From Spirochaetaceae bacterium (GTDB taxonomy: Bacteria; Spirochaetota; Spirochaetia; Treponematales; Breznakiellaceae): a stretch of DNA of 12,228 nt. This document shows positions 1 through 12,228 of the stretch, in pieces. Where the stretch lies: the NCBI GenBank assembly GCA_031276945.1, contig JAISMB010000143.1, positions 1-12,228 of the forward strand. The letters are read 5' to 3'. The notes below the pieces were generated by a model that was given only the letters and a program-made list of their open reading frames with translations, was not told the DNA's origin and did no database searches. A program made the translations under genes and the position numbers. How positions within the stretch are numbered: position 1 is the first letter of the stretch; each line of letters begins with the position of its first letter.

Positions 1-120
1 TTAAGTCAGACCTCGCCCCCCTTAAGTCAGACCTCGCCCCCCTTAAGTCAGACCTCGCCCCCCTTAAGTCAGACCTCGCCCCCCTTAAGTCAGACCTCGC
101 CCCCCTTAAGTCAGACCTGT
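1..120. repeat. Tandem 21-bp direct repeat TTAAGTCAGACCTCGCCCCCC: five perfect copies plus a partial sixth. The array reaches the window edge and may continue to the left.
   Basis: Perfect 21-bp periodicity is visible from positions 1-105. The partial last unit (TTAAGTCAGACCTG) contains the TGA stop of the adjacent minus-strand MCP gene. Confidence 0.95.
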
Positions 121-2604: not shown

Positions 2605-3277
2605 TCATGTGGGCTCGGGTGTTGTCCTAGGGGGTTTCGTCAAAAAGAAGGAAGATAAATCTGAGATAGAGAGCGGCGAGAAAGGAATCAGAACGTTTAG
2701 CATACCGAGTAGTACTACCTCTCTGTACTGCTTAAGCCACCGAAATACATGCTCAATGAGATGGCGCTTCTTATACAGCTCTGTGTCATAAGTCCTTACC
2801 ACTTTCCGACTACGCTTGGAAGGAATAACTACCTTACTACCTCCTGCACAGGCTGTGTCTATTACCTGGTTCACGTCATACCCCCTATCGGCAATCAAGA
2901 CTTTTACTGATAACCCTGCCATTAAGGGCGGTGCATAGGCGCAATCCGCCTCCTGCCCCGCTGAAACTATGATACGTACCGACTTTCCCTTCTTAATCTA
3001 TAGCAAGGTGGACTTTCGTATTGAGCCCCCTTGTGTACGCCCTATCCCGCCAGCGGCAAAATCTTCGGTATGTATTTTTCCAGTCGCCGTATTCAGGAGG
3101 TAAATCTCTCCAAGGAACGCCGGGTCTGATAATCCAGGATACAGCATTGATAAAGCGTCGATTGTCATGAGCCATTCGACCCTGTTTACCTGCCGCTTCT
3201 GGAAGTAAGTCTTTTATTTTTTCCCACAGCGTATCATTGATGTCGTGTCTGTGCAGTACTTTTCCGTTTTCTTTCAT
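2605..3277 (-). pseudogene. IS5-family DDE transposase, disrupted. It is split into ORFs 2993-3277 and 2605-2922, with an internal deletion of about 128 bp and a C-terminal frameshift.
   Basis: Relative to copy 2, the segment DVWKTIAAELIGEVDTQWLMIDATYSKVHADG...QAIG is missing. The deletion lies between GATAG microhomologies (junction near 3040-3050). Near 2730-2760 a 2-bp indel shifts the frame after LKQ, so the ORF ends in unrelated residues instead of the RGIA(T)RY... tail. Confidence 0.75.
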
Positions 3278-3322
3278 CTTGTTATCTTACTTTATTTCCT
3301 TCCTTTTGACGACACTCCCTAA
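2627..3322 (-). mobile_element. IS5-family (IS427/IS1031-like) insertion sequence, copy 1, degenerate.
   Basis: Terminal inverted repeats (C)TAGGGGGTTTCGTCAAAAAGAAGGAAGATAA at 2627 and TTAGGGAGTGTCGTCAAAAGGAAGGAAATAA (reverse complement) ending at about 3322. These match the ends of the second copy at 4208-5027. The internal ORFs carry the IS5-type N-terminal RRFINAVSWIIRPGVPWRDLPPEYGDW and C-terminal IADRGYD...YDTELYKKRHLIEHVF..LKQ motifs. Confidence 0.8.
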
Positions 3323-3344
3323 CATATTCCGGTAATAAATTTAT

Positions 3345-4205
3345 GGAGGTGATCCACAAAGAATGATGAACCTCAAATAAAGCCGTAATTGATGTATAAA
3401 GAAAGCAATATCAAAGGCTTTTCAGTGGTTGAACAGCTTTTGGAAAAACAGCAGTTCAGTTCCTCCGAAATGTCCGCCTTACCTGATGCCTCAACCGGTA
3501 ATTATTCCTCTCTATCCCTCCCATATGCTTTTTTCCTATGTTATGGTTGTCCTCCGCGAAAGCTGAAAGAAAACTGTCCCTATCGTCCGTCGCTATCCTG
3601 TCATAGCTTATCCCTATCTGTTTTATCCTCTTTACTTAACTTTTTTGCGGTTTTCAGGTCCACCTTTCCACAGACAAACGCCACAATTTTCTCGCTTCCC
3701 CGCTGATACGCGTATATCAGCCATAGGTTGTTCTCCTTTTTTCCTCTATACGTCCAACACTCGTCTATTTCAAGATGATCGTAGTAACTTCTCTTCGGTT
3801 TTATGTTATGTTTGGTTGATTTCAGTACTTTTAAGACTTTGGTGATACTGATGTCTGGTATGCCCATTCCCCGGACAAGCATGATTTTTACCAGTTCGAC
3901 TACCCGGGAAAGGCATCCCCGATAGGGTTTTTCATGGTCGCTTAAAAACTGACGTCCGCGGTCTTTACACTGGTAATTTTGCTTTCCCTTGCTCTTTTTC
4001 CCGTTTCGAGTTAAGGTGGAACTATGGCAATGGGGGCATTTGAGTTCTAATGTAAGGAAGAGCGTCGCTACTCCTCCTGTTGAGAAGGCTGTTAAACGGG
4101 GAATGGGCTTTGTGGTCCTCAAAATGCCAAAGCACAAAACCCATTGCGACTTTCTTCTTTTTCACTTTACAGCTTCATGGGCTGTACTGAGAAAGCGTCA
4201 CCGCC
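3345..4205 (-). mobile_element. IS1-family-like element with a frameshifted transposase.
   Basis: Putative terminal inverted repeats GGAGGTGATCC (3345-3355) and, in reverse complement, GGCGGTGACGC (4195-4205). These resemble the IS1 GGTGATGC termini. The coding content is IS1 InsA/InsB-like. Confidence 0.55.
3601..4137 (-). pseudogene. IS1-family transposase fragment (InsA-like zinc finger fused to the start of the InsB-like DDE domain). The remainder continues out of frame to about 3400.
   Basis: The 178-aa ORF contains CPHCHSSTLTRNGK...YQCKDRGRQF, a Cys4 zinc finger like IS1 InsA. It also contains IDECWTYRGKKENNLWLIYAYQRGSEKIVAFVCGK, comparable to IS1 InsB [20 protein letters not shown]...VVAHVFGER. 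After its stop at 3601, another minus frame reads ...HNIGKKHMGGIERNNYRLRH, which resembles IS1 InsB ...ISKRYTQRIERHNLNLRQH. The transposase is therefore frameshifted or internally deleted. Confidence 0.65.
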
Positions 4206-4207
4206 AT

Positions 4208-5027
4208 TAGGGAGTGTCGTCAAAAGGAAGGAAATAAAGTAAGATAACAAGATGAAAGAAAATGGAAAAGCATTGCACAGACACGACATCAGTGATAACC
4301 TGTGAGAAAAGATAAAAGACTTACTGCCAGGAGCGGCAGGTAAACAGGGTCAAATGGCTCATGACAATCGACGCTTTATCAATGCAGTATCCTGGATTAT
4401 CAGAACCGGCGTTCCAGACAGAGACTTACCTCCTGAATACGGAGACTGGAAAAATACACACCGAAGATTTTCCCGCTGGCGGGATAGAGATGTCTGGAAA
4501 ACAATAGCCGCTGAACTTATCGGGGAAGTGGATACCCAGTGGCTTATGATAGATGCAACTTATAGTAAAGTCCATGCAGACGGATGTACAGCGGTTGGAG
4601 GAAATCAAGCGATAGGGCGTACACAAGGGGGCTCAATACGAAAGTCCACCTTGCTATAGATAAGAAGGGAAAGCCAGTACGTATCATAGTTTCAGCGGGG
4701 CAGAAGGCGGATTGCGCGTATGCACCGCCCTTAATGGCAGGGTTATAGGTAAAAGTCTTGATTGCTGATAGAGGGTATGACATGAACCAGGTAATAGACA
4801 CAGCCTGTGCAGGAGGTATTAAGGTAGTTATTCCTTCCAAGCGTAGTCGGAAGGTGGTAAGGACTTATGACACAGAGCTGTATAAAAAGCGCCATCTTAT
4901 TGAGAATGTGTTTTGGTGGCTTAAACAGTGGAGAGGTATTGCTATTCGCTACGCTCAACGCTCTGATTCCTTTCTCGCCGCTCTCTATCTCAGATTTATC
5001 TTCCTTCCTTTTGACGACACGCCCTAG
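4208..5027 (+). mobile_element. IS5-family (IS427/IS1031-like) insertion sequence, copy 2, degenerate and inverted relative to copy 1.
   Basis: Left inverted repeat TTAGGGAGTGTCGTCAAAAGGAAGGAAATAAAG begins at about 4208. Right inverted repeat ...TTCCTTCCTTTTGACGACACGCCCTAG ends at about 5027. The two ends match each other with a single mismatch. The copy abuts the IS1-like right end with a 2-bp gap. Confidence 0.8.
4252..5027 (+). pseudogene. IS5-family DDE transposase, inactivated by a premature stop and at least two frameshifts.
   Basis: The ATG at 4252 gives MKENGKALHRHDISDNL and then TGA at 4303-4305, where copy 1 reads TLWEKIKDLL. The homology then continues in three different frames. 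ORF 4354-4659 reads RRFINAVSWII...QAIGRTQGGS. The next frame reads KVHLAIDKKGKPVRIIVSAGQKADCAYAPPLMAGL-stop. ORF 4758-5027 reads IADRGYDMNQV...RHLIENVFWWLKQWRGIAIRYAQRSDSFLAALYLRFI. Confidence 0.8.
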
Positions 5028-5060
5028 TTTAACAGCCCTCTCAACATCTTTAGATAAGAT

Positions 5061-5130
5061 AAGAGAGGGGATAGGTCAGACCTTGCCCCTTCGCCTTAGC
5101 CCGCGATGCAACTCCCCCCATAGGTCAGAC
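5061..5130. repeat. Two degenerate copies of the TAAGTCAGACCTCG repeat core (ATAGGTCAGACCTTGCCCCT at 5061 and ATAGGTCAGACTTCCTG at 5110).
   Basis: Direct inspection shows ATAGGTCAGACC twice, 49 bp apart, immediately outside the IS5 copy 2 end and 70-140 bp from the atpG stop. Confidence 0.6.
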
Positions 5131-5201
5131 TTCCTGATCCGACTAGGATGGGCTTGAGAACTTCGTGCGTTACTGCTTTGTTTCTTGAGAGAGGGAGGCA
5201 T

Positions 5202-6083
5202 TTAAAGCCCCAGAGAACCGCTTATAATTTCAGTCATTTCCTGCGTAATAGTCGCTTGGCGGATGCGATTGTAATAAATCTGCAAGTCTGCAAGCATTTT
5301 TTCAGCATTCTTTGAAGATTCGTTCATTGCTTTCATGCGAGCGCTCTGTTCACTGGCATAAGCCTCGACTAAACAGCCGTAAATCATGCCTTTGAGGTAA
5401 AGCGGCACGAGCGCCTCAAAAACAGTCTCAGCAGAAGGCAGGTATTCAAAGCTCAACGCAGTCCGTTGCTGCCCGCCGCTTTCGATAATTTCAGCCTGTA
5501 TTTTCTGTGCATCAAGCGGCAGCAGGTGGTGGATAGTCGGCACGAGTTTAACGGTACTGTAGAGGTGGGTATACACAATATAAATCTCGTCAAACATGCC
5601 CCAGAGGTACTGCATTATAAGGTAATGGGTGATAAGCTGGGCATCATCAAGAGTCGGCAACTGTGAGTTAAAGGAAAAATTCTCGACTAGAGGGTAGGGG
5701 GCATGGCTAAAATAACGATAAGCGCTGTTCCCCACCGGCAGCAGCACGGGGTTGCGTAGCTGGGCGCAGAGGGTATTGACCGTCTTAAAAATGTTGGCAT
5801 TGTAGCCGCCAGCCATACCTTTGTCGCTGCTTATTATCAATACAGCGCTGTGAAACGCGGTGTTTTTTTCTATCCGTTTAATGAATTCATTGGGTATCAT
5901 GCCGGCACCGACGACAATATCGTATAAAGACTTCTGTATCCGCATGAAAAACGGTTCTGTATCTTCAAGAATACGCCGTGCTTTACGCAATTTTGCCGTA
6001 GAAATAAGGTCCATCGCTTTGGTTACCTGCAATGTTTGTTGTATCGCCCGCATCCTGAGGCGTAGTTCTTGTCCGTTTGCCAT
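5202..6083 (-). CDS. atpG: F-type ATP synthase F1 gamma subunit.
   Basis: The sequence is collinear with bacterial gamma chains. The N-terminus MANGQELRLRMRAIQQTLQVTKAMDLISTAKLRKARR compares with E. coli [34 protein letters not shown]. The C-terminus is ASEQSARMKAMNESSKNAEKMLADLQIYYNRIRQATITQEMTEIISG. The ORF track extends to 6119 by using a TTG start. The ATG at 6081-6083 (MANGQ...) gives a canonical length of 293 aa and is preferred. Confidence 0.9.
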   Translation of the reverse strand: MANGQELRLRMRAIQQTLQVTKAMDLISTAKLRKARRILEDTEPFFMRIQKSLYDIVVGAGMIPNEFIKRIEKNTAFHSAVLIISSDKGMAGGYNANIFKTVNTLCAQLRNPVLLPVGNSAYRYFSHAPYPLVENFSFNSQLPTLDDAQLITHYLIMQYLWGMFDEIYIVYTHLYSTVKLVPTIHHLLPLDAQKIQAEIIESGGQQRTALSFEYLPSAETVFEALVPLYLKGMIYGCLVEAYASEQSARMKAMNESSKNAEKMLADLQIYYNRIRQATITQEMTEIISGSLGL

Positions 6084-6254
6084 GATTTCGGTGGAAAAAG
6101 GAAGGGAGAGGGCGCGCAAAGTTCGCTTCTTCTGTCCTCTTTCCTGCTCCTGTCTTATAAGATTTACTCAAACCGAGAGGGATTTTTAAGTCTCGTGCCT
6201 GCTTCTTCCTGCGCTCGTTTCACGTGCGACATGCGCTCTCATATTCACAGGCTT

Positions 6255-6273
6255 CCCGCCAACGGCGGGTTTT
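6255..6273 (+). terminator. Plus-strand terminator-like GC hairpin plus T-tract (CCCGCCaacGGCGGG-TTTT), lying between two minus-strand genes.
   Basis: A perfect 6-bp GC stem with a 3-nt loop is followed by TTTT on the plus strand only. On the minus strand the same hairpin is followed by AAGCC, with no U tract. Confidence 0.35.
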
Positions 6274-6427
6274 AGTTAAACCGGTTGAACCGACCGTGCG
6301 CCGTTCTCAAGCACGATCCAACGCTGAAGCGGCTCGTTCGTCCGTTGTATGCCCTTGTTGTTCAAAGGCATTGCTTGCCACTGCTGAGAGGGTATCATTA
6401 TTCATTATGAAGTATAATACTCGTTTG

Positions 6428-7918
6428 CTAGGCAGTTTTTTTATACTTTTCTATCGCAGTCTGTAGTTCCGACTCGTTCTCAAGGGAAAGTGCGCCGGTT
6501 TTTTTAATGCTCTCCATAAGCGGCGCATACTGAACATTAAGATAGGCAAGAAATTCACGCAGAAAAGACCGCACTTTTTCTTTTGGCACATCAAGCAGGA
6601 GGTTATTGGTTATCAAAAACAGAATTGCCACTTCTTCTTCAAGAAGGAAAGGAGAAAACTGCGGCTGCTTGAGTGTTTCCATAATACGTTCGCCTTGGGC
6701 GAGCTTTTCTTGCGTAGCCTTATCCAGATCGCTGCCGAATTGGGCGAAAGCCGCCATTTCCCGGTATTGTGCAAGGTCAAGTCTGAGCCGACCTGAAATA
6801 TGCCTTATAGCTTTAGTTTGTGCAGAACCGCCGACCCGGCTGACTGAAAGCCCTACATCAATGGCAGGACGAAAGCCGGCATTGAACAGTTCTGTCTGTA
6901 GAAAGACCTGTCCATCGGTAATTGAAATAACATTAGTAGGAATGTATGAAGAAATATCACCAGCTTGGGTTTCCACAATGGGAAGAGCTGTAATAGAACC
7001 GCCGCTTCTCAGTTTTGCAGCGCGTTCTAAAAGCCGAGAATGGAGGTAAAACACATCACCGGGAAAAGCTTCCCGTCCGGGCGGACGGCGCAGCAAGAGT
7101 GATATGGTACGGTATGCGACCGCATGCTTTGAAAGATCATCGTAGACCACAAGAACATCTTTGTGCTGGTGCATAAAATGTTCAGCCATAGCAACGGCTG
7201 AATACGGCGCTAAGTACTGCAAAGCTGCCGAGTCTGATGCTGCTGCAAGCACCACAAAGGTATAGTCTAAAGCGCCATACTTTTCTAAATTGCGCACGAT
7301 TGCTGCTACTGAAGAAGATTTTTGCCCGATAGCGCAGTAAATACAGATAATATCAGCATCTTTTTGGTTAATGATTGTATCAAGAGCAAGGGAAGTTTTT
7401 CCGGTTTGTCTATCGCCTATGATTAATTCACGCTGTCCACGACCAATGGGAATCATAGCATCAATGGCAATAATTCCGGTTTGTAAGGGCGTATCAACAG
7501 CACCACGCTCAATAACCGGTGCAGCAGGCGACTCAACCGGCAGCATCTCTTCCGGCTCAAGAGCCCCTTTACCATCAACCGGCACACCGAGCGGATTCAC
7601 TACCCGTCCTAATAAGGATTGTCCAGCCGGAACTGAAGCGACTTTTCCGCTACCGCGTACTTCTTCGCCATCTTTTACTAACGAATCACCAGAAAGCAGT
7701 ACACATCCGACCGTTTCTTCGGTTAAGTTCAGCACCATGCCAGTTGCACCGGAGGCAAATTCCACCAGTTCGCCGTATACAGCTTTATTGAGTCCGCGGA
7801 TAATCGCCACAGAATCACCGACTTGTACAACAGATCCCACCGAAAAAGACGGTACTTTAGTTTCCCAGTTTTTCAGTTCTTCTTGTAAGATCGCGGTTAA
7901 ATTGCCAAAATCAAGCAT
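6428..7918 (-). CDS. atpA: F-type ATP synthase F1 alpha subunit.
   Basis: 496-aa ORF with an ATG at 7916-7918 preceded by AGGAAAGGG. It carries the Walker A motif [11 protein letters not shown] and the alpha-signature block [53 protein letters not shown]...[45 protein letters not shown]. Confidence 0.95.
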
Positions 7919-7964
7919 ACCCTTTCCTCTTGATTAACGAATGAGCCGGTTTTCCTAACCTGCA

Positions 7965-8004
7965 TAAGAAAAAGATCCTCCGGCACGCACCGGGCGGAAG
8001 ATCC
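7965..8004 (-). terminator. Rho-independent terminator of the LRR-protein gene.
   Basis: On the minus strand, GGATCTTCCGCCCGGtgcgtgCCGGAGGATC forms a roughly 12-bp stem with one mismatch. It is followed by TTTTTCTT and lies 116 nt downstream of the LRR stop at 8120. Confidence 0.6.
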
Positions 8005-8119
8005 CCAAAGGAAGTCTAGTTGTAAAATAACTATACCAGAAATAACGAACGGAACGCAAGCCCTCTTGACTGAAAAGCACGGCAGCCTCTCAGAAATCCT
8101 CAAGAGGTCTGACCGTGAG

Positions 8120-10486
8120 CTATCTTTTCCATGAGCCATTCTGCTGCATCTTATAGGTTCCGGATTTTTTACCGTTCGAGTTATACAGCTCAGTCAGATT
8201 ATTGTTAAAGGCAAAAGCGCCCATACTTATATTCTGAGCCGCAAGGTTTACGGTGACGAGCGGGTTACGGTAAAAAGCCCCGGCGCTAATGGTAAGAACA
8301 CTGCGCGGTATGCTGATACTCGTCAGCTTGTTACCAGAAAAAGCATATTCACCAATGGTAGTAATGCTGGGCGGAAGGGTCAGGCTTGTTAAGCTGTTAT
8401 CATAAAACGCATAATTGCCAATGGTAAGAACGCCGTGCGGCAGACTGAGTGTTTTGAGCTGATTGCTGTAAAAGGCATAATCGCCAATTTCACTGACGCT
8501 CTTAGAAAGAGTAAGTGTTGCGATCCTATTCATGGAAAAAGCTTCAGCGCCGATTTTCGTTACCTGATGCGGAATAGTTACCGCGGTCAGTTGATTATCA
8601 TAAAATGCGCAGTCGGCTATGCTTGTCAAACTTTCAGAAAGAACAACCGTGCTTAATTGATTAGAACGAAAGGCGTATGCTCCAAGAGTAGTAACGCTCT
8701 GGGGAATAACGACCATGAACAACCTATTATGAGAAAATGCATCTGCGCCTATGACGGTCAGACCATCAGGCAGCTCAAGCTTGGTTAATCTATTGCCGGA
8801 AAATGCCCCGCTGCCTATAGTCGTAACGTTGTCGGGAATATTAACCATGGTTAAGAGGTTATTATAAAAAGCATAATCGCTAATGGACTCGAGGCTGTTC
8901 GGCAAGCTCAAGCCGGTTAATCTGTTGCCGGAAAAAGCTCCGCTGCCTATAAACTTGAGACTGTGCGGAAGGCTTATGCTGCTTAACAGGTTATCGGCAA
9001 ACGCACGCTCGCCGATAGTGGTAACGCCGCTCGGAATACTGATCGTACTTAACTGATTGCCGGAAAAAGCTCCCGCACCAATGGTCGTAACGCTGCGGGG
9101 AATGGTCAGACCAGTGAGTTTATTTCCGGCAAAAGCATAGTCGCCAATACTTTGCACAGTGTGCGGAATACTCACGGCAATAAGTTGATTATTGGCAAAC
9201 GCATAACTGCCAATACTTTCTACCGTATCAGGAATAACCAGCGCCAAAAGATTATTCAGCCGGAATGCGCCGTTTCCTATCATGTTCAGCGTCTGGGGCA
9301 GATCAATATCCGTCAAATTATTTTCAGCAAACGCATCATCATCAAGGGACTCAAGTCCGGAAAAAAGCTGCACTGCGCTTAATTGATTGTAGGCAAACGC
9401 CTGTTTTCCAATATGCTTAACGCTCGGCGGAATAGTAACGGCGCTCAGATTATTGGCATAGAAGGCGTGGTCTTCTATAGACACGAGCGTTTCAGGCAGA
9501 GTTATGAGTGCAAGCTCGTTGTCATAGAATGCTTCTTTGGCAATAGTGGTAACCGGCAGCGCTTCAATATACGAAGGTATTTTCAGGGACTGCACGAAAT
9601 GCGTAAAGCCGGTAATGCTGACGGTACTGCCGCGCACTTCCCAGCGCAATCCCTCAGGCACAGGCTCAAAAACTGGCACGCCGCTGAGGGTAAACGATAA
9701 GCCTGACATGTTTTCCCATGCGTCCGCAAAAGTTTGGTAATACACAGTCCCGCTTTTATGCTGCCTGCTCTGCGCAAGATTCATAAGCCGTGTATCAAGC
9801 ATAGTCTTTTCCCCAAGCTTCCAAGCGCCTGAAAGCAAGACAAAACCGGTCTGTCCCTGCTCTTCCAAGACCTGTTCAAGGCTCTTGCGGCTGAAGACGC
9901 TAAAGGCGCAGGTATTTGCCAAATCGATAGCCAGCAGGTGCAGTAAGGTTTCTACCTCATGCCGGTTCAAGGTTTCAGAAACGAATTGCGCCGGTATGAG
10001 CGAGAGGGGCGCGGGCGTGCGCGCTGCGGCAGCGGCGCTCACCAGCGCGATTTGCTCCGCCAGAGCGGGCAGGGCTTGCTGCACGTCTTGCGCTCTTGTA
10101 TACGCACAGTAGGCGCCGGCGATTTGCTGCGCCTGTGCGGGCTTGGTCAGCGAGAGAATGAGTAAGCGCTGCCCTGAAAAGGCTGCGGTTGTGCCTGTAA
10201 GGACGTAGTCGGCTTGCAAGTCCCGACTCAGCTTGTCAAGGACAGTCGGAGAATATCCGTGAGGAGTCGGCGTTACGGCGAGCGCCTGCGTCAGCGCCTC
10301 ATGCGGCACGGGCGCAAACACGCGGTTGAGCGCCGGCTCAGTTGCGAGCAGGTCTGCCCCGTTTGGAGCGGCTTCATCAGCAGCGCCCACAAACGGCAGG
10401 ATGAGAAGACGGGGTTTTTCTTGTGCAAAAACCGGTAGTGCGAGGCAGAGCAAGCAGTACAGCATGCAGCGGGTTACGGCTTTCAT
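8120..10486 (-). CDS. Secreted BspA-type leucine-rich-repeat protein, with an N-terminal TolB-N-like/LPF domain and about 20 23-residue LRRs.
   Basis: 788-aa ORF with an ATG at 10484-10486 preceded by AAGGAG. The signal peptide is MKAVTRCMLYCLLCLALPVFA|QE. The N-terminal 300 aa contain KPRLLILPF...LQADYVLTGT, the LPF...DYVLTG signature of TolB-N-like periplasmic modules. About 20 tandem units of the pattern AFxxNxLTx(V/I)xIPxSVxxIGxxAF follow. This is the BspA/TpLRR-type LRR, with N at the position where those families often have C. Confidence 0.85.
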   Translation of the reverse strand: MKAVTRCMLYCLLCLALPVFAQEKPRLLILPFVGAADEAAPNGADLLATEPALNRVFAPVPHEALTQALAVTPTPHGYSPTVLDKLSRDLQADYVLTGTTAAFSGQRLLILSLTKPAQAQQIAGAYCAYTRAQDVQQALPALAEQIALVSAAAAARTPAPLSLIPAQFVSETLNRHEVETLLHLLAIDLANTCAFSVFSRKSLEQVLEEQGQTGFVLLSGAWKLGEKTMLDTRLMNLAQSRQHKSGTVYYQTFADAWENMSGLSFTLSGVPVFEPVPEGLRWEVRGSTVSITGFTHFVQSLKIPSYIEALPVTTIAKEAFYDNELALITLPETLVSIEDHAFYANNLSAVTIPPSVKHIGKQAFAYNQLSAVQLFSGLESLDDDAFAENNLTDIDLPQTLNMIGNGAFRLNNLLALVIPDTVESIGSYAFANNQLIAVSIPHTVQSIGDYAFAGNKLTGLTIPRSVTTIGAGAFSGNQLSTISIPSGVTTIGERAFADNLLSSISLPHSLKFIGSGAFSGNRLTGLSLPNSLESISDYAFYNNLLTMVNIPDNVTTIGSGAFSGNRLTKLELPDGLTVIGADAFSHNRLFMVVIPQSVTTLGAYAFRSNQLSTVVLSESLTSIADCAFYDNQLTAVTIPHQVTKIGAEAFSMNRIATLTLSKSVSEIGDYAFYSNQLKTLSLPHGVLTIGNYAFYDNSLTSLTLPPSITTIGEYAFSGNKLTSISIPRSVLTISAGAFYRNPLVTVNLAAQNISMGAFAFNNNLTELYNSNGKKSGTYKMQQNGSWKR

Positions 10487-10507
10487 ACGGTGAACTCCTT
10501 TTTAAGC

Positions 10508-10536
10508 AGTATATCCTAAAGCATTGAACGGTAAAA
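10508..10536 (-). promoter_or_regulatory. Putative sigma-70-like promoter of the LRR gene (-35 TTTTAC, 17-nt spacer, -10 TATACT).
   Basis: The minus strand reads ccTTTTACcgttcaatgctttaggaTATACTgcttaaaaAGGAGttcaccgtATG. The -10 lies at 10508-10513 and the -35 at 10531-10536. It sits 14 bp downstream of the large repeat array. The leader would be very short. Confidence 0.25.
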
Positions 10537-10549
10537 GGGAAGGCTGGGG

Positions 10550-10835
10550 TAAGTCAGACCTCGGCTTCAGATAAGTCAGACCTCGCCCTCCGGTAAGTCA
10601 GACCTCGTCCCCAGATAAGTCAGACCTCGCCCTCCGGTAAGTCAGACCTCGCCCTCCGGTAAGTCAGACCTCGCCCTCCGGTAAGTCAGACCTCGCCCTC
10701 CGGTAAGTCAGACCTCGCCCTCCGATAAGTCAGACCTCGGCTTCAGATAGGTCAGACCTCGCCCTCCGGTAAGTCAGACCTCGCCCTCCGGTAAGTCAGA
10801 CCTCGCCCTCCGGTAAGTCAGACCTCGGCTCTGCA
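10550..10835. repeat. Tandem array of about 13 copies of the 22-bp unit TAAGTCAGACCTCGCCCTCCGG, with three variant units ending ...CGGCTTCAGA or ...CGTCCCCAGA.
   Basis: Strict 22-bp periodicity is read directly. Units 4-7 and 10-12 are identical, while units 1, 3 and 9 carry variant 3' halves. Each unit contains the interrupted palindrome GTCAGAC (GTCNGAC). Confidence 0.95.
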
Positions 10836-10840
10836 TATCA

Positions 10841-10928
10841 GAAAGATGCGGGAGTCCCGACCGAGAGATGCGGGAGTCTCGGCTGAGAGATGCGGGAGTC
10901 TCGACCGAGAGATGCGGCAGTCTCAGGC
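10841..10928. repeat. Second tandem array: four copies of the 22-bp unit GAGAGATGCGGGAGTCTCGRCC.
   Basis: The sequence reads GAAAGATGCGGGAGTCCCGACC / GAGAGATGCGGGAGTCTCGGCT / GAGAGATGCGGGAGTCTCGACC / GAGAGATGCGGCAGTCTCAGGC. The core contains the interrupted palindrome GAGTCTC. The array ends 14 bp from the SPFH gene stop. Confidence 0.9.
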
Positions 10929-10941
10929 GCACGGTCAAGCC

Positions 10942-11994
10942 TTATTCTTTCTTGTGCAGTTCCGCCAGAGCTTGCAGCCCAAAGATAGAACCGTCTTTGA
11001 GTTCTTCGGTGATTTCATTCGGCACGAGCATCATGGAATTGCCCGCCTTTAAGCCTTCGTTCAGAATGGAGAGCGTTTTTAATTTCAGCGCATTCATATC
11101 GTGCGCATACACCGCAGCAGCATCCGCCAGCCGATTGGCAATATCAATCTCAGCCTCGGCAAGCAGGATACGGCTCTTCTTTTCCCGTTCAGCCTGCGCA
11201 AGACGCGCAAGAGAATCCTGCAATCCCTCAGGAATCTGAATGTCGGTAATTTCAATATGCTGGATGGTAATGCCCCATTCGGTTGTCTTCTCGTCAACCG
11301 TGGCTTGCAGTTTCCGTTCAATAACCCGACTGTCGCGCAAAAACGTGGTCAGGTCAGTGCTGGAAACCGCATTGCGCAGCGCGGTCTTCGATGATAAAAT
11401 CACCGCCTGCTCATAGTTTTCAACTTCCAAAGCGGCTTTCTCCGCATCCCAGACAAGCCAAAAACAGAGCGCGTCAACCTGCATCGTAACCGAATCAAGA
11501 CTCAGCGTTTCCTGTGTGGAAAAATCAGAGACCCGTATGCGCATATCAATCCGCTGGGCAATACGATCCAGCAGCGGGATCAGGAAGAAAACCCCCGGAC
11601 CACGCACCCGATAGAAACGACCGAGCCGCAGCACCACCGCCCGCTCCCATTCATCACATTTTTGCAGCACCGGCGCCACAAAAACCACGATACCGGCACA
11701 GAGGGCGCTCAACGTATAATACGGAAAGCCCAAAACCGCGCCGGTAATAACGGCAAGAAAAAAAATCTTAACCGCATCCACCCACCGCGGGAAGAGCAGC
11801 ATACCGATAAGCGCGCTCACCGGAATACCGGCAAGCACGCCCCATTCTCCGAGCGTCGGCGTATCGCCGCGGCTTATGCGCAGCGCCAGCACGACCATAA
11901 GACTGAGCGCAACCATGCCGATACCGGTTGTATTTAATACCCAGTCCGACCTTTTGCTAGCCCGCGGCTTATTTTTTATCAGCATATCCTTCAT
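10942..11994 (-). CDS. SPFH/band-7 (stomatin/HflKC-like) membrane protein with a three-TM N-terminal extension.
   Basis: 350-aa ORF with an ATG at 11992-11994 preceded by GAGGAGG. There are three hydrophobic helices in the first 120 aa. An SPFH core follows (RAVVLRLGRFYRVRGPGVFFLIPLLDRI...VTMQVDALCFWLVWDAEKAALEV). The C-terminal coiled-coil, rich in Ala and Glu (LARLAQAEREKKSRILLAEAEIDIANRLADAA), is typical of the family. Confidence 0.8.
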   Translation of the reverse strand: MKDMLIKNKPRASKRSDWVLNTTGIGMVALSLMVVLALRISRGDTPTLGEWGVLAGIPVSALIGMLLFPRWVDAVKIFFLAVITGAVLGFPYYTLSALCAGIVVFVAPVLQKCDEWERAVVLRLGRFYRVRGPGVFFLIPLLDRIAQRIDMRIRVSDFSTQETLSLDSVTMQVDALCFWLVWDAEKAALEVENYEQAVILSSKTALRNAVSSTDLTTFLRDSRVIERKLQATVDEKTTEWGITIQHIEITDIQIPEGLQDSLARLAQAEREKKSRILLAEAEIDIANRLADAAAVYAHDMNALKLKTLSILNEGLKAGNSMMLVPNEITEELKDGSIFGLQALAELHKKE

Positions 11995-12228
11995 AAATCC
12001 TCCTCATTGCAGCGGATAATCATGCAGCGGCTCAAAGACTTTCGCGCGTTTCACGCCCCTTTCTCCGAGCGTCGGCGTCCCGCCGCGGCTGATACGCAGC
12101 GCCAGCACGACCATAAGACTGAGCGCAACCATGCCGCTGCCGCTTGTATTTAATACCCAGTCCGACCTTTTGCTAGCCCGCGGCTTATTTTTTATCAGCA
12201 TATCCTTCATAAATCCTCCTCATTGCAG
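11845..12228. repeat. Direct tandem duplication with a 216-bp period that spans the SPFH gene's RBS, start codon and first 50 codons. Copy 1 is 11845-12012, a 48-bp spacer follows, and copy 2 is 12061-12228 at the window edge.
   Basis: The 168-bp blocks are about 93% identical. Both end with the same 72 nt: CCAGTCCGACCTTTTGCTAGCCCGCGGCTTATTTTTTATCAGCATATCCTTCATAAATCCTCCTCATTGCAG. The upstream copy yields ORF 12004-12210. Confidence 0.9.
12004..12210 (-). pseudogene. Truncated duplicate of the SPFH-protein N-terminus (68 aa). It is in frame with the downstream full-length gene and separated from it by TGA plus three codons.
   Basis: MKDMLIKNKPRASKRSDWVLNTSGSGMVALSLMVVLALRISRGGTPTLGERGV... compares with the full gene's MKDMLIKNKPRASKRSDWVLNTTGIGMVALSLMVVLALRISRGDTPTLGEWGV.... 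It has its own GAGGAGG RBS copy. The stop is TGA at 12004-12006, followed by GGA GGA TTT ATG. Confidence 0.6.

What the first reader, a model, noticed from the sequence alone, without database searches (positions are those of the whole stretch)
10550..10928. About 380 bp of two different 22-bp tandem repeats packed against the promoter of a secreted LRR protein gene
The 236-bp intergenic space between the SPFH gene and the BspA-type LRR gene is almost entirely two arrays: 13 copies of TAAGTCAGACCTCGCCCTCCGG and 4 copies of GAGAGATGCGGGAGTCTCGRCC. The first array ends 14 bp upstream of the best -35/-10 candidate for the LRR gene. Both units carry an odd-centred palindrome, GTCAGAC and GAGTCTC, which is the geometry of a dimeric DNA-binding site. 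Twenty-two bp is about two helical turns, so every copy presents the same face. This looks like either a multi-site regulator landing pad or a copy-number-variable phase/expression switch for a surface antigen. Variant units 1, 3 and 9 show the array has been reshuffled rather than recently amplified from one unit.
Basis: partly seen in the sequence, partly recalled or inferred. Interest (0 to 1): 0.75.

Follow-up and report, generated by a model that had tools for sequence, protein, structure and literature searches.

The report
Dispersed 22-bp minisatellite beside LRR promoter
The two 22-bp tandem arrays are real, but the main unit belongs to a repeat family found at several other intergenic sites of the same termite-gut-type spirochaete contig, so it is most likely an ordinary, unstable minisatellite beside the LRR gene's promoter and not a dedicated switch for that gene.

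Summary
There are 13 units of TAAGTCAGACCTCG+8 nt (10550-10835) and 4 units of GAGAGATGCGGGAGTCTCGRCC (10841-10928). Together they fill 84% of the 455-bp (not 236-bp) spacer between the SPFH and BspA-type LRR genes, and end 14 bp from the only sigma-70-like promoter candidate.

The unit is not specific to this locus. A perfect 21-bp array with the same 17-nt core starts the contig (1-118, 3' of a chemoreceptor gene). Solo copies lie 3' of atpG and 2 bp after the LRR stop codon. The 14-nt core is almost invariant and the 8-nt tail varies (p about 4e-9).

There is no RNA structure, Rfam match, inverted repeat, rep/par gene or tRNA. Orthologous SPFH loci of relatives have no arrays. No second assembly of this locus exists, so copy-number variation could not be tested.

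The closest precedent is the 'BrickBuilt' 23-nt minisatellite/MITE of Porphyromonas gingivalis. A 15-bp array with the core GGTCAGACCTCG, flanked by a 31-nt inverted repeat, occurs in another Treponema MAG whose title gives no host.

Verdict: a lineage-specific dispersed minisatellite that probably varies in copy number. An effect on LRR expression is possible but unsupported. This is a new member of a known kind, of modest interest.

The parts
10550..10835 (+). Array A: 13 head-to-tail 22-bp units, each an invariant 14-nt core TAAGTCAGACCTCG plus a variable 8-nt tail. Seven units have the tail CCCTCCGG. The variants are units 1 and 9 (GCTTCAGA), 3, 8, 10 and 13.
   Evidence: The longest perfectly periodic run is 109 bp.
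10841..10928 (+). Array B: 4 units of GAGAGATGCGGGAGTCTCGRCC, unrelated in sequence to array A. A TCTCGRCYGAGA palindrome sits at each unit junction.
   Evidence: The A-versus-B alignment score is no better than shuffles.
10508..10535 (-). The only sigma-70-like promoter candidate for the LRR gene (-35 TTTACC, 16 nt, -10 TATACT), 14 bp from array A. The Shine-Dalgarno sequence AGGAG lies at 10499-10495 and the ATG at 10486.
   Evidence: 9 of 12 consensus matches; a consensus match only, not a mapped start site; sequence.
8120..10486 (-). The gene downstream of the arrays: a 788-aa protein with a signal-peptide-like N-terminus, an N-terminal domain of about 210 aa with no Pfam match, and BspA-type LRR_5 repeats.
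10942..11994 (-). The gene upstream of the arrays: an SPFH/Band 7 (slipin) protein. No terminator-like site lies between it and the LRR gene.
1..118 (+). Array C: at least 5.6 perfect 21-bp units TTAAGTCAGACCTCGCCCCCC with the same 17-nt core as array A. It lies at the contig start, directly 3' of the chemoreceptor (MCP) gene, whose TGA stop codon (111-113) falls in the partial last unit.
5070..5095 (+). Solo family copy GATAGGTCAGACCTTGCCCC, about 18 of 20 identical to the junction of units 9 and 10 in array A. It lies 3' of atpG and outside the IS end.
5121..5140 (+). A second, degenerate solo copy: ATAGGTCAGACTTCC.
8105..8118 (-). Solo copy GGTCAGACCTCTTG in the opposite orientation, 2 bp after the LRR stop codon. 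The LRR gene is therefore bracketed by inverted GAGGTCTGAC sequences.
   Evidence: The 11-mer has a chance expectation of about 0.006 in 12 kb.

Best explanation
Array A is one locus of a lineage-specific, dispersed intergenic minisatellite family. Its units have a constrained 14-17-nt core and a free tail, and they occur as solo copies or as tandem arrays of 21-22 bp.

Inferred mechanism: a core-containing copy arrives in an intergenic spot, usually just 3' of a gene. It then expands and contracts in whole units by replication slippage or unequal recombination between the direct repeats. The runs of identical units, and the recurrence of the unit-1 variant at unit 9, fit repeated block duplications.

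In this contig such an array lies between the SPFH gene and the LRR gene's own promoter. It has stop codons in every frame on both strands, carries no promoter and adopts no structure. Any effect on the LRR gene would be a by-product, for example changing by 22-bp steps what lies upstream of -35, or lengthening an untranslated read-through segment from SPFH. It is not a purpose-built switch.

Shown here: the arrays, the dispersal within the contig, the core/tail asymmetry, the absence of coding or structure, and the promoter adjacency. Inferred: the slippage mechanism, copy-number instability and the mode of dispersal. Array B is a second, unrelated local minisatellite.
For: The same core is found at five separate intergenic sites in 12 kb. 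Four lie on the + strand and one is inverted, and each lies within about 130 bp downstream of a stop codon.

Among distinct unit types the core has 1 difference in 84 positions and the tail 19 in 48, Fisher p = 4e-9.

The period differs between arrays: 21 versus 22 bp.

Array C is perfect for exactly 118 bp from contig base 1. That is what a k=119 de Bruijn assembly leaves when it breaks inside a long perfect array. A MAG contig in the same repeat search carries the prefix k119_.

TAA on the + strand and TGA on the - strand recur every 22 bp, so all frames are closed.

The intergenic RNA is less structured than shuffles, z = +2.9. There are no inverted repeats, no Rfam match and no promoter-like site inside the arrays.

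Orthologous SPFH loci of four relatives, 33 kb in all, have no such motif or array. Three of them show other genes after SPFH: ABC/MacB transporter genes in two, and a short ORF then a helicase in the third. The arrays therefore sit at a lineage-specific junction.

Published precedent with the same anatomy: P. gingivalis BrickBuilt. It has 23-nt direct repeats at 1 to 22.8 copies, 19 intergenic loci, the variable positions in the latter half of the unit, frequent stop codons, expansion and contraction between strains, assembly gaps, and loci next to secreted-protein genes (PMC4596501).

A Treponema MAG (L007) has about 10 x 15-bp units with the core GGTCAGACCTCG, also with variable tails, 3' of a gene and flanked by a 31-nt inverted repeat.
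Against: Only 12 kb of this genome could be examined, so genome-wide dispersal is extrapolated. Copy-number variation is not shown.

No shared leader/tail flanks or terminal inverted repeats were found around the window's arrays, so there is no evidence here of MITE-type mobility.

A strictly invariant core is also what a protein-binding array would show, so a selected function is not excluded.

The link to L007 rests on a 12-nt core. Tandem arrays containing the same 9-11-mer turn up by chance in unrelated organisms.
Confidence: 0.55

Rival explanations
1. The arrays are binding-site arrays for a sequence-specific, probably dimeric, DNA-binding protein that recognises the (G)GTCAGAC(C) quasi-palindrome. 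The protein could be a regulator, a nucleoid protein or an insulator. Array A would concentrate it next to the LRR promoter.
For: The 14-nt core is invariant over 19 units while the tail varies freely. The solo copies and unit 10 carry the longer palindrome GGTCAGACC, as does the L007 array. Periods of 21-22 bp put neighbouring sites on nearly the same helical face. The array ends 14 bp from -35.
Against: No DNA-binding protein gene other than broken transposase genes lies in the window. The sites lie mostly 3' of genes, not at promoters. The period is not conserved: 21 and 22 bp here, and 15 bp in L007 if it is related. A 3+1+3 palindrome is expected by chance in about a third of random 22-mers. 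BrickBuilt shows the same pattern of a conserved half and a variable half with no known binding protein.
Confidence: 0.17
2. Array A is a contingency (phase-variable or rheostat) locus selected to vary expression of the LRR surface protein through gain and loss of 22-bp units. This would resemble the 7-bp repeats between the P2 and P1 promoters of H. influenzae hmw1A.
For: The array lies immediately upstream of the promoter candidate of a gene with a signal-peptide-like N-terminus and LRR_5 repeats. Runs of identical units are prone to slippage. There is no terminator between SPFH and LRR, so the array separates upstream transcription from the proximal promoter, as in hmw1A, where more repeats give less transcript (PMC8262952).
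Against: The same unit forms arrays and solo copies next to a chemoreceptor gene and ATP synthase genes. The 22-bp unit is far longer than typical contingency repeats (own knowledge). The repeats lie outside the -35/-10 spacer and outside the ORF. No population data exist.
Confidence: 0.12
3. The arrays are partly an assembly artefact. The copy number is wrong, or the SPFH-LRR adjacency is a chimeric join of two loci that both carry the dispersed repeat.
For: This is a short-read MAG contig. It starts inside an array of the same family. Where relatives show the sequence after SPFH, two of the three loci have ABC/MacB transporter genes there and none has an LRR gene. BrickBuilt loci are documented to cause assembly gaps.
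Against: Variant units 1, 3, 8, 9, 10 and 13 anchor the array, and the longest perfectly periodic run (109 bp) is shorter than the inferred k-1 = 118. An assembler at that k should break and not collapse, as it did at array C. The repeats themselves are certainly real sequence.
Confidence: 0.07
4. The arrays are iterons of a replication origin or a plasmid-type centromere. Tandem 20-22-bp repeats bound by Rep or ParR proteins are classic.
For: Tandem direct repeats of about two helical turns, with a second set of repeats alongside, resemble iteron origins. 22-bp tandem iterons next to rep genes are described in PMC10378824 and PMC3557383.
Against: No rep, par or dnaA gene is in the window. DnaA boxes are not enriched: 3 found against 2.4 expected. 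There is no match in 72,556 plasmids or in viral contigs. The same core recurs 10 kb away and as solo copies. The neighbouring genes are chromosomal housekeeping types.
Confidence: 0.02

Closest known systems
BrickBuilt minisatellite/MITE of Porphyromonas gingivalis (Klein et al. 2015, PMC4596501)
   Same: Spacer-less direct repeats of about 22-23 nt, occurring from solo copies to arrays of more than 20 units. Several dispersed, strictly intergenic, lineage-restricted loci. A conserved first half and a variable latter half of the unit. Frequent stop codons. Assembly breaks. Loci next to secreted-protein genes and within 100 nt of a downstream gene's promoter.
   Different: There is no sequence similarity; the BrickBuilt consensus is absent from the window. 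No leader or tail segments with terminal inverted repeats were found around the window's arrays, although 3 of 19 BrickBuilt loci also lack both. No promoter-like sites were found in the arrays. Strain-to-strain expansion is not demonstrated here. The phylum is different.
MIRU/VNTR minisatellites of Mycobacterium tuberculosis
   Same: A dispersed family of intergenic tandem repeats whose copy number varies by whole units (PMC3635867).
   Different: By my own knowledge, MIRU units are 40-100 bp and often carry small ORFs that overlap the flanking genes' stop and start codons. Here the units are 21-22 bp with stop codons in all frames and no start codons.
Promoter-region simple sequence repeats of phase-variable adhesins (H. 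influenzae hmw1A/hmw2A, 7-bp ATCTTTC repeats)
   Same: A tandem array just upstream of the proximal promoter of a surface-protein gene, with transcription able to enter from upstream. In hmw1A the repeat number tunes expression (PMC8262952).
   Different: The unit is three times longer. The same unit occurs at unrelated loci. No polymorphism or expression data exist.
REP/BIME-type intergenic repeats
   Same: Short dispersed elements clustered just 3' of genes and sometimes multiplied in tandem (own knowledge).
   Different: REPs are imperfect palindromes that form hairpins, and they alternate in orientation within BIMEs. Here the units are direct, lack hairpin potential (z = +2.9) and have no inverted repeats.
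Iterons and plasmid centromere repeats (R6K-type 22-bp iterons; ParR-bound 20-bp repeats)
   Same: Tandem direct repeats of about two helical turns with a conserved core.
   Different: No adjacent rep or par gene, a chromosomal gene context, several dispersed copies, and no plasmid match.

Membership tests
BrickBuilt-like dispersed minisatellite (by kind, not by homology) | Spacer-less tandem direct repeats of about 20-25 nt | tested here: met
   Periods of 22, 22 and 21 bp; units shown in register.
BrickBuilt-like dispersed minisatellite (by kind, not by homology) | Several dispersed copies per genome, from solo units to long arrays, always intergenic | tested here: met
   Five intergenic sites in 12 kb: 1-118, 5070-5095, 5121-5140, 8105-8118 and 10550-10835.
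BrickBuilt-like dispersed minisatellite (by kind, not by homology) | Conserved and variable halves within the unit | tested here: met
   Core 1/84 versus tail 19/48 differences, p = 4e-9.
BrickBuilt-like dispersed minisatellite (by kind, not by homology) | Leader and tail flanks ending in terminal inverted repeats, with target-site duplications (the MITE character) | tested here: not met
   No inverted repeats in 10400-11000. No flank similarity among the window's copies beyond one 11-mer, z = 3.6. The possibly related L007 array does have a 31-nt inverted repeat, z = 12.
BrickBuilt-like dispersed minisatellite (by kind, not by homology) | Expansion and contraction of whole units between strains | not testable with these tools
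   No second assembly of this locus was found.
BrickBuilt element proper (homology) | Unit matching AGAYCATARTATCCTCTCRTRTG | tested here: not met
   0 matches at up to 3 mismatches.
Phase-variable contingency locus | Repeat tract placed so that unit changes alter expression: inside an ORF, inside the -35/-10 spacer, or between promoter elements | tested here: inconclusive
   The tract ends 14 bp upstream of a predicted -35 and lies between the SPFH gene and the promoter. The promoter is only a consensus match.
Phase-variable contingency locus | Tract length polymorphic within and between populations | not testable with these tools
   Only a single contig is available. The exact double-core pattern is absent from the genome and metagenome collections.
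Phase-variable contingency locus | Tract tied to the regulated gene and not part of a generic repeat family | tested here: not met
   The same unit lies next to the MCP, atpG and LRR 3' ends.
Iteron origin / plasmid centromere | An adjacent rep or par gene, with DnaA boxes or an AT-rich unwinding element | tested here: not met
   Pfam scan of all large ORFs. DnaA boxes at the chance level. No plasmid match.
REP/BIME | Imperfect palindromic unit able to form a hairpin | tested here: not met
   The fold is less stable than shuffles, z = +2.9. No inverted repeats.
REP/BIME | A cognate RAYT (Y1 transposase) in the genome | not testable with these tools
CRISPR array | Repeats of 23-47 nt separated by unique spacers of similar length, usually with cas genes | tested here: not met
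   A 14-nt core with an 8-nt tail that is identical in 7 of 13 units. No cas genes.
Known structured RNA | A match to an Rfam family, or a fold more stable than shuffles | tested here: not met
   0 Rfam matches at E <= 1; z = +2.9.

The most novel reading that the evidence does not exclude
The invariant quasi-palindromic core (G)GTCAGACCTC may be the recognition site of a lineage-specific DNA enzyme or binding protein, and copies of it may mark the boundaries of movable gene segments. In this contig a family member sits at every break of synteny: the 3' end of the MCP gene, the atpG/IS junction, the LRR/atpA junction and the SPFH/LRR junction. The LRR gene with its promoter is bracketed by inverted GAGGTCTGAC sequences. 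This could point to a new cassette-type mobilisation or recombination system that shuffles surface-protein genes in gut spirochaetes, with tandem arrays as its by-product.
Probability: 0.08. Interest if true: 0.65.

Novelty: new member of a known kind. Interest (0 to 1): 0.3.

Why it matters
If the family is dispersed through the genome and varies in length, it has three practical uses. It gives a ready-made marker for typing strains of uncultured gut spirochaetes. It explains why their short-read assemblies fragment. It is also a plausible source of rearrangement and of expression noise next to surface-protein genes. It would extend the BrickBuilt type of minisatellite from Bacteroidota to Spirochaetota. 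Nothing found here suggests a new regulatory principle.

Tried and rejected
(1) Exact double-core pattern: no hits in one genome per species, in JGI metagenomes or in viral contigs. Array B also had no viral hits.

(2) Looser patterns gave more than 107 genome hits and 22 metagenome hits. On inspection these are unrelated minisatellites of high-GC soil bacteria and others. The bases next to the required 9-mer are diverse, and one example sits in an organism with LuxI/LuxR-type genes. I had briefly entertained a cross-phylum 'GTCAGACCTCG super-family' and rejected it as a large-database chance effect.

(3) I translated the open frames of the 21-bp unit and searched for proteins made of those peptide repeats, to find arrays that had been called as genes. 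Nothing was found.

(4) Array B as an inverted, diverged copy of array A: the alignment scores are no better than shuffles, and there is no long hairpin.

(5) Terminator role for the solo copies: the folds are unremarkable (z = -2.5, 0.0 and 0.1) and there is no clean stem plus T-run.

(6) Link to the IS elements: the unit is not part of the IS5-type ends.

(7) tRNA or attachment-site context: no tRNA genes.

(8) Plasmid iterons: no blastn match, and DnaA boxes are at the chance level.

(9) Literature search for the motif found only unrelated primer sequences. No paper on tandem repeats in termite Treponema was found.

(10) Looking for other assemblies or paralogous loci through exact-protein look-ups of the SPFH, AtpA, LRR, MCP and transposase proteins: none on record. 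The word-index search with the LRR N-terminus found nothing.

Full report
SOURCE. The window is a complete 12,228-bp contig. Its SPFH protein is 100% identical to MDR2151122.1, 'MAG: slipin family protein [Spirochaetaceae bacterium]', whose longest contig is 12,228 bp. The nearest named relatives of that protein are Breznakiella homolactica, Treponema primitia and many 'MAG: Treponema sp.' entries. By my own knowledge this points to a termite-gut treponeme, which is an inference.

All real genes lie on the - strand:
- chemoreceptor (MCP), 111-2312
- broken IS copies, 2605-4659
- atpG, 5202-6119
- atpA, 6428-7918
- BspA-type LRR_5 protein, 8120-10486
- SPFH, 10942-11994

OBSERVATION. Both arrays exist as described. 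TRF gives 10548-10827 (period 22, 12.7 copies, 91% matches) and 10844-10924 (period 22, 3.7 copies, 89%). In register there are 13 units from 10550 and 4 units from 10841. The 14-mer core is found 20 times at up to 2 mismatches against 0.06 expected, and the array-B core 4 times against 0.29 expected. The spacer between the SPFH stop codon and the LRR ATG is 455 bp, not 236 bp, and the arrays fill 84% of it.

The only promoter-like site in 10300-11100 is on the - strand: TTTACC at 10535-10530, a 16-nt spacer, then TATACT at 10513-10508. This is exactly 14 bp from the first unit. AGGAG follows at 10499-10495, 8 nt before the ATG at 10486. No terminator-like site separates SPFH from the LRR gene. 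The gene start is sound. The first ~210 residues have no Pfam match but have 377 HMMER relatives that align from about residue 8 and carry this region at or near their own N-terminus in most cases.

The contig begins with 5.6 perfect copies of a 21-bp unit, TTAAGTCAGACCTCGCCCCCC, which shares 17 nt with the array-A unit. It lies directly 3' of the MCP gene, whose TGA stop codon falls in the partial last unit. Solo copies occur at three places:
- 5070-5095, about 18 of 20 identical to the junction of units 9 and 10
- 5121-5140; both of these are 3' of atpG and outside the IS end
- 8105-8118, in inverted orientation, 2 bp after the LRR stop codon

So four of the seven non-IS intergenic regions of this contig carry the family, each time just downstream of a gene. 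The unit is therefore a dispersed repeat and not an element private to the LRR promoter.

ANATOMY. Seven of the 13 units in array A are identical. Units 1 and 9 share the same variant tail. Units 3, 8, 10 and 13 differ. Almost all variation lies in the last 8 nt. Counting only distinct unit types and including array C, there is 1 difference in 84 core positions against 19 in 48 tail positions (p = 4e-9). Every unit carries TAA on the + strand and TGA on the - strand, so a 22-bp period closes all six frames, and no ORF crosses array A.

The - strand RNA of the whole spacer folds worse than shuffles (z = +2.9). There are no inverted repeats and no Rfam match. Arrays A and B are not detectably related in either orientation. 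Twenty-two bp is 2.10 helical turns, a drift of 34 degrees per unit, and the sister array has a period of 21 bp, so helical phasing is not a conserved feature. A 3+1+3 palindrome is expected in about one random 22-mer in three, so GTCAGAC and GAGTCTC carry little weight. The solo copies, unit 10 and L007 have the longer palindrome GGTCAGACC.

ASSEMBLY. Array C is perfectly periodic for exactly 118 bp from base 1. That is the k-1 overlap a k=119 de Bruijn assembler leaves when it exits a cyclic repeat, and a MAG contig in the same repeat search is named k119_.... The real length of array C is therefore unknown. In array A the longest perfect run is 109 bp, below that limit, and variant units anchor it. 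The assembled copy number is plausible but not independently verified.

COMPARISONS. The exact double-core pattern is absent from one genome per species (185,579 of them), from the JGI metagenome contigs and from viral contigs. Looser patterns returned many hits, but these are unrelated minisatellites in high-GC soil bacteria and other organisms. The bases flanking the required 9-mer are diverse, and one hit lies in an organism with LuxI/LuxR-type genes. In databases of this size any 9-11-mer will be found inside some tandem array, so I reject a wide family.

Two hits may be relatives.
- L007 is a Treponema MAG whose record title names no host. It has about 10 units of 15-18 bp with a constant GGTCAGACCT(C) core and variable tails. 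The array lies 3' of a gene on the opposite strand, as in the window, and is flanked by a 31-nt inverted repeat (z = 12).
- L001 carries the closest SPFH orthologue (79% identity) and has AGGGACAGACCTCG x2 just 3' of another gene.

Four other SPFH loci from relatives (60-73% identity, 33 kb in total) contain neither the motif nor any such array. Three of them show the genes after SPFH: ABC/MacB transporter genes in two, and a short ORF followed by a helicase gene in the third. The SPFH-array-LRR arrangement is therefore a lineage-specific junction.

INTERPRETATION. The best fit is a lineage-specific dispersed minisatellite. A core-bearing copy lands in an intergenic spot, then grows and shrinks by slippage or unequal exchange between the direct repeats.

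The published precedent matches point by point. P. gingivalis BrickBuilt (PMC4596501) has 23-nt spacer-less repeats at 1 to 22.8 copies, 19 strictly intergenic loci, most non-conserved positions in the latter half of the unit, frequent translational stops, unit gain and loss between strains, and assembly gaps at its loci. Five of its 19 loci lie next to genes for secreted proteins carrying the Por secretion system (PorSS) C-terminal domain, and one lies within 100 nt of a downstream gene for which it may supply the promoter.

There are differences. There is no sequence similarity. No leader/tail or terminal inverted repeats surround the window's arrays, although L007 has them. The arrays contain no promoter-like hexamers.

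The invariant core would suit a binding protein. An array between upstream transcription and a proximal promoter is the hmw1A layout, where more 7-bp repeats give less transcript (PMC8262952). Nothing found here makes the array specific to the LRR gene. The two decisive properties, length polymorphism and protein binding, cannot be tested with the data available.

An iteron or centromere reading is very unlikely: there are no rep or par genes, DnaA boxes are at the chance level, and there is no plasmid match.

VERDICT. The feature is real and correctly described apart from the spacer length. It is most probably a new member of a known kind, a BrickBuilt- or VNTR-type dispersed minisatellite in an uncultured spirochaete. 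Interest is modest at 0.3. The residual novel reading is that the core marks boundaries of movable gene segments, since a family member lies at each synteny break and the LRR gene is bracketed by inverted cores. It rests on 10-11-nt matches, and I give it about 8%.

Noticed in passing
window 1-118: A perfect 21-bp tandem array (at least 5.6 copies) with the same 17-nt core as array A lies at the very start of the contig. It is perfectly periodic for exactly 118 bp, which equals k-1 for a k=119 assembly, so the contig probably broke inside a longer array. The MCP gene's TGA stop codon (111-113) lies inside the partial last unit.
   Followed up: yes
window 5070-5095, 5121-5140 and 8105-8118: Solo copies of the repeat core lie 3' of atpG (two, + strand) and 2 bp after the LRR stop codon (one, inverted). 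A family member therefore lies at each synteny break of the contig, and the LRR gene is bracketed by inverted GAGGTCTGAC sequences.
   Followed up: partly
window 11836-12228: A 216-bp tandem duplication (1.8 copies, 95% identity) repeats the SPFH ribosome-binding site and the first ~68 codons. This gives a truncated upstream copy (ORF 12004-12210) ahead of the full gene. It runs to the contig end; the last 85 bp are an exact repeat of 11928 onward.
   Followed up: partly
window 2605-5046: Two inverted, diverged (87-93%) copies of an IS5-type element (2617-3322 and 4207-5037), with broken DUF4096/DDE transposase ORFs, flank an IS1-like fragment (3601-4137). This is a decayed composite IS cluster.
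   Followed up: partly
window 5202-8139: Only the atpA and atpG genes of an F/N-type ATP synthase are present. IS debris lies where the next gene would be. Upstream of atpA there is only an 80-aa ORF with no Pfam match, and then the LRR gene. The operon looks truncated by rearrangement.
   Followed up: no
window 9857-10486 (LRR protein residues 1-210): The N-terminal domain of the LRR protein has no Pfam match, and the word-index search found nothing. HMMER found 377 relatives at about 30% identity, most of them carrying the region at or near their own N-terminus. This appears to be an unannotated N-terminal domain family fused to varied C-terminal parts.
   Followed up: partly
window 10001-10500: G+C rises to 0.62 over the 5' end of the LRR gene, against 0.45-0.51 for the rest of the gene.
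   Followed up: no
window 10841-10928: Each unit junction in array B forms a 5+2+5 palindrome, TCTCGRCYGAGA. It produces the only local hairpins in the fold of the spacer RNA.
   Followed up: partly
L007 81-311 (Treponema sp. MAG Iy174_bin49): About 10 units of 15-18 bp with the core GGTCAGACCTC are enclosed by a 31-nt inverted repeat, CGGCGGACTTTAGTCCATAGATCGTTTACTT. This is a MITE-like minisatellite 3' of an FtrD-like gene.
   Followed up: partly
L001 60-215 (closest SPFH relative, GCA_031284085.1): The intergenic region 3' of an Sm_multidrug_ex gene holds a ~60-bp direct repeat plus AGGGACAGACCTCG x2. That contig also ends 154 bp after the SPFH gene.
   Followed up: no
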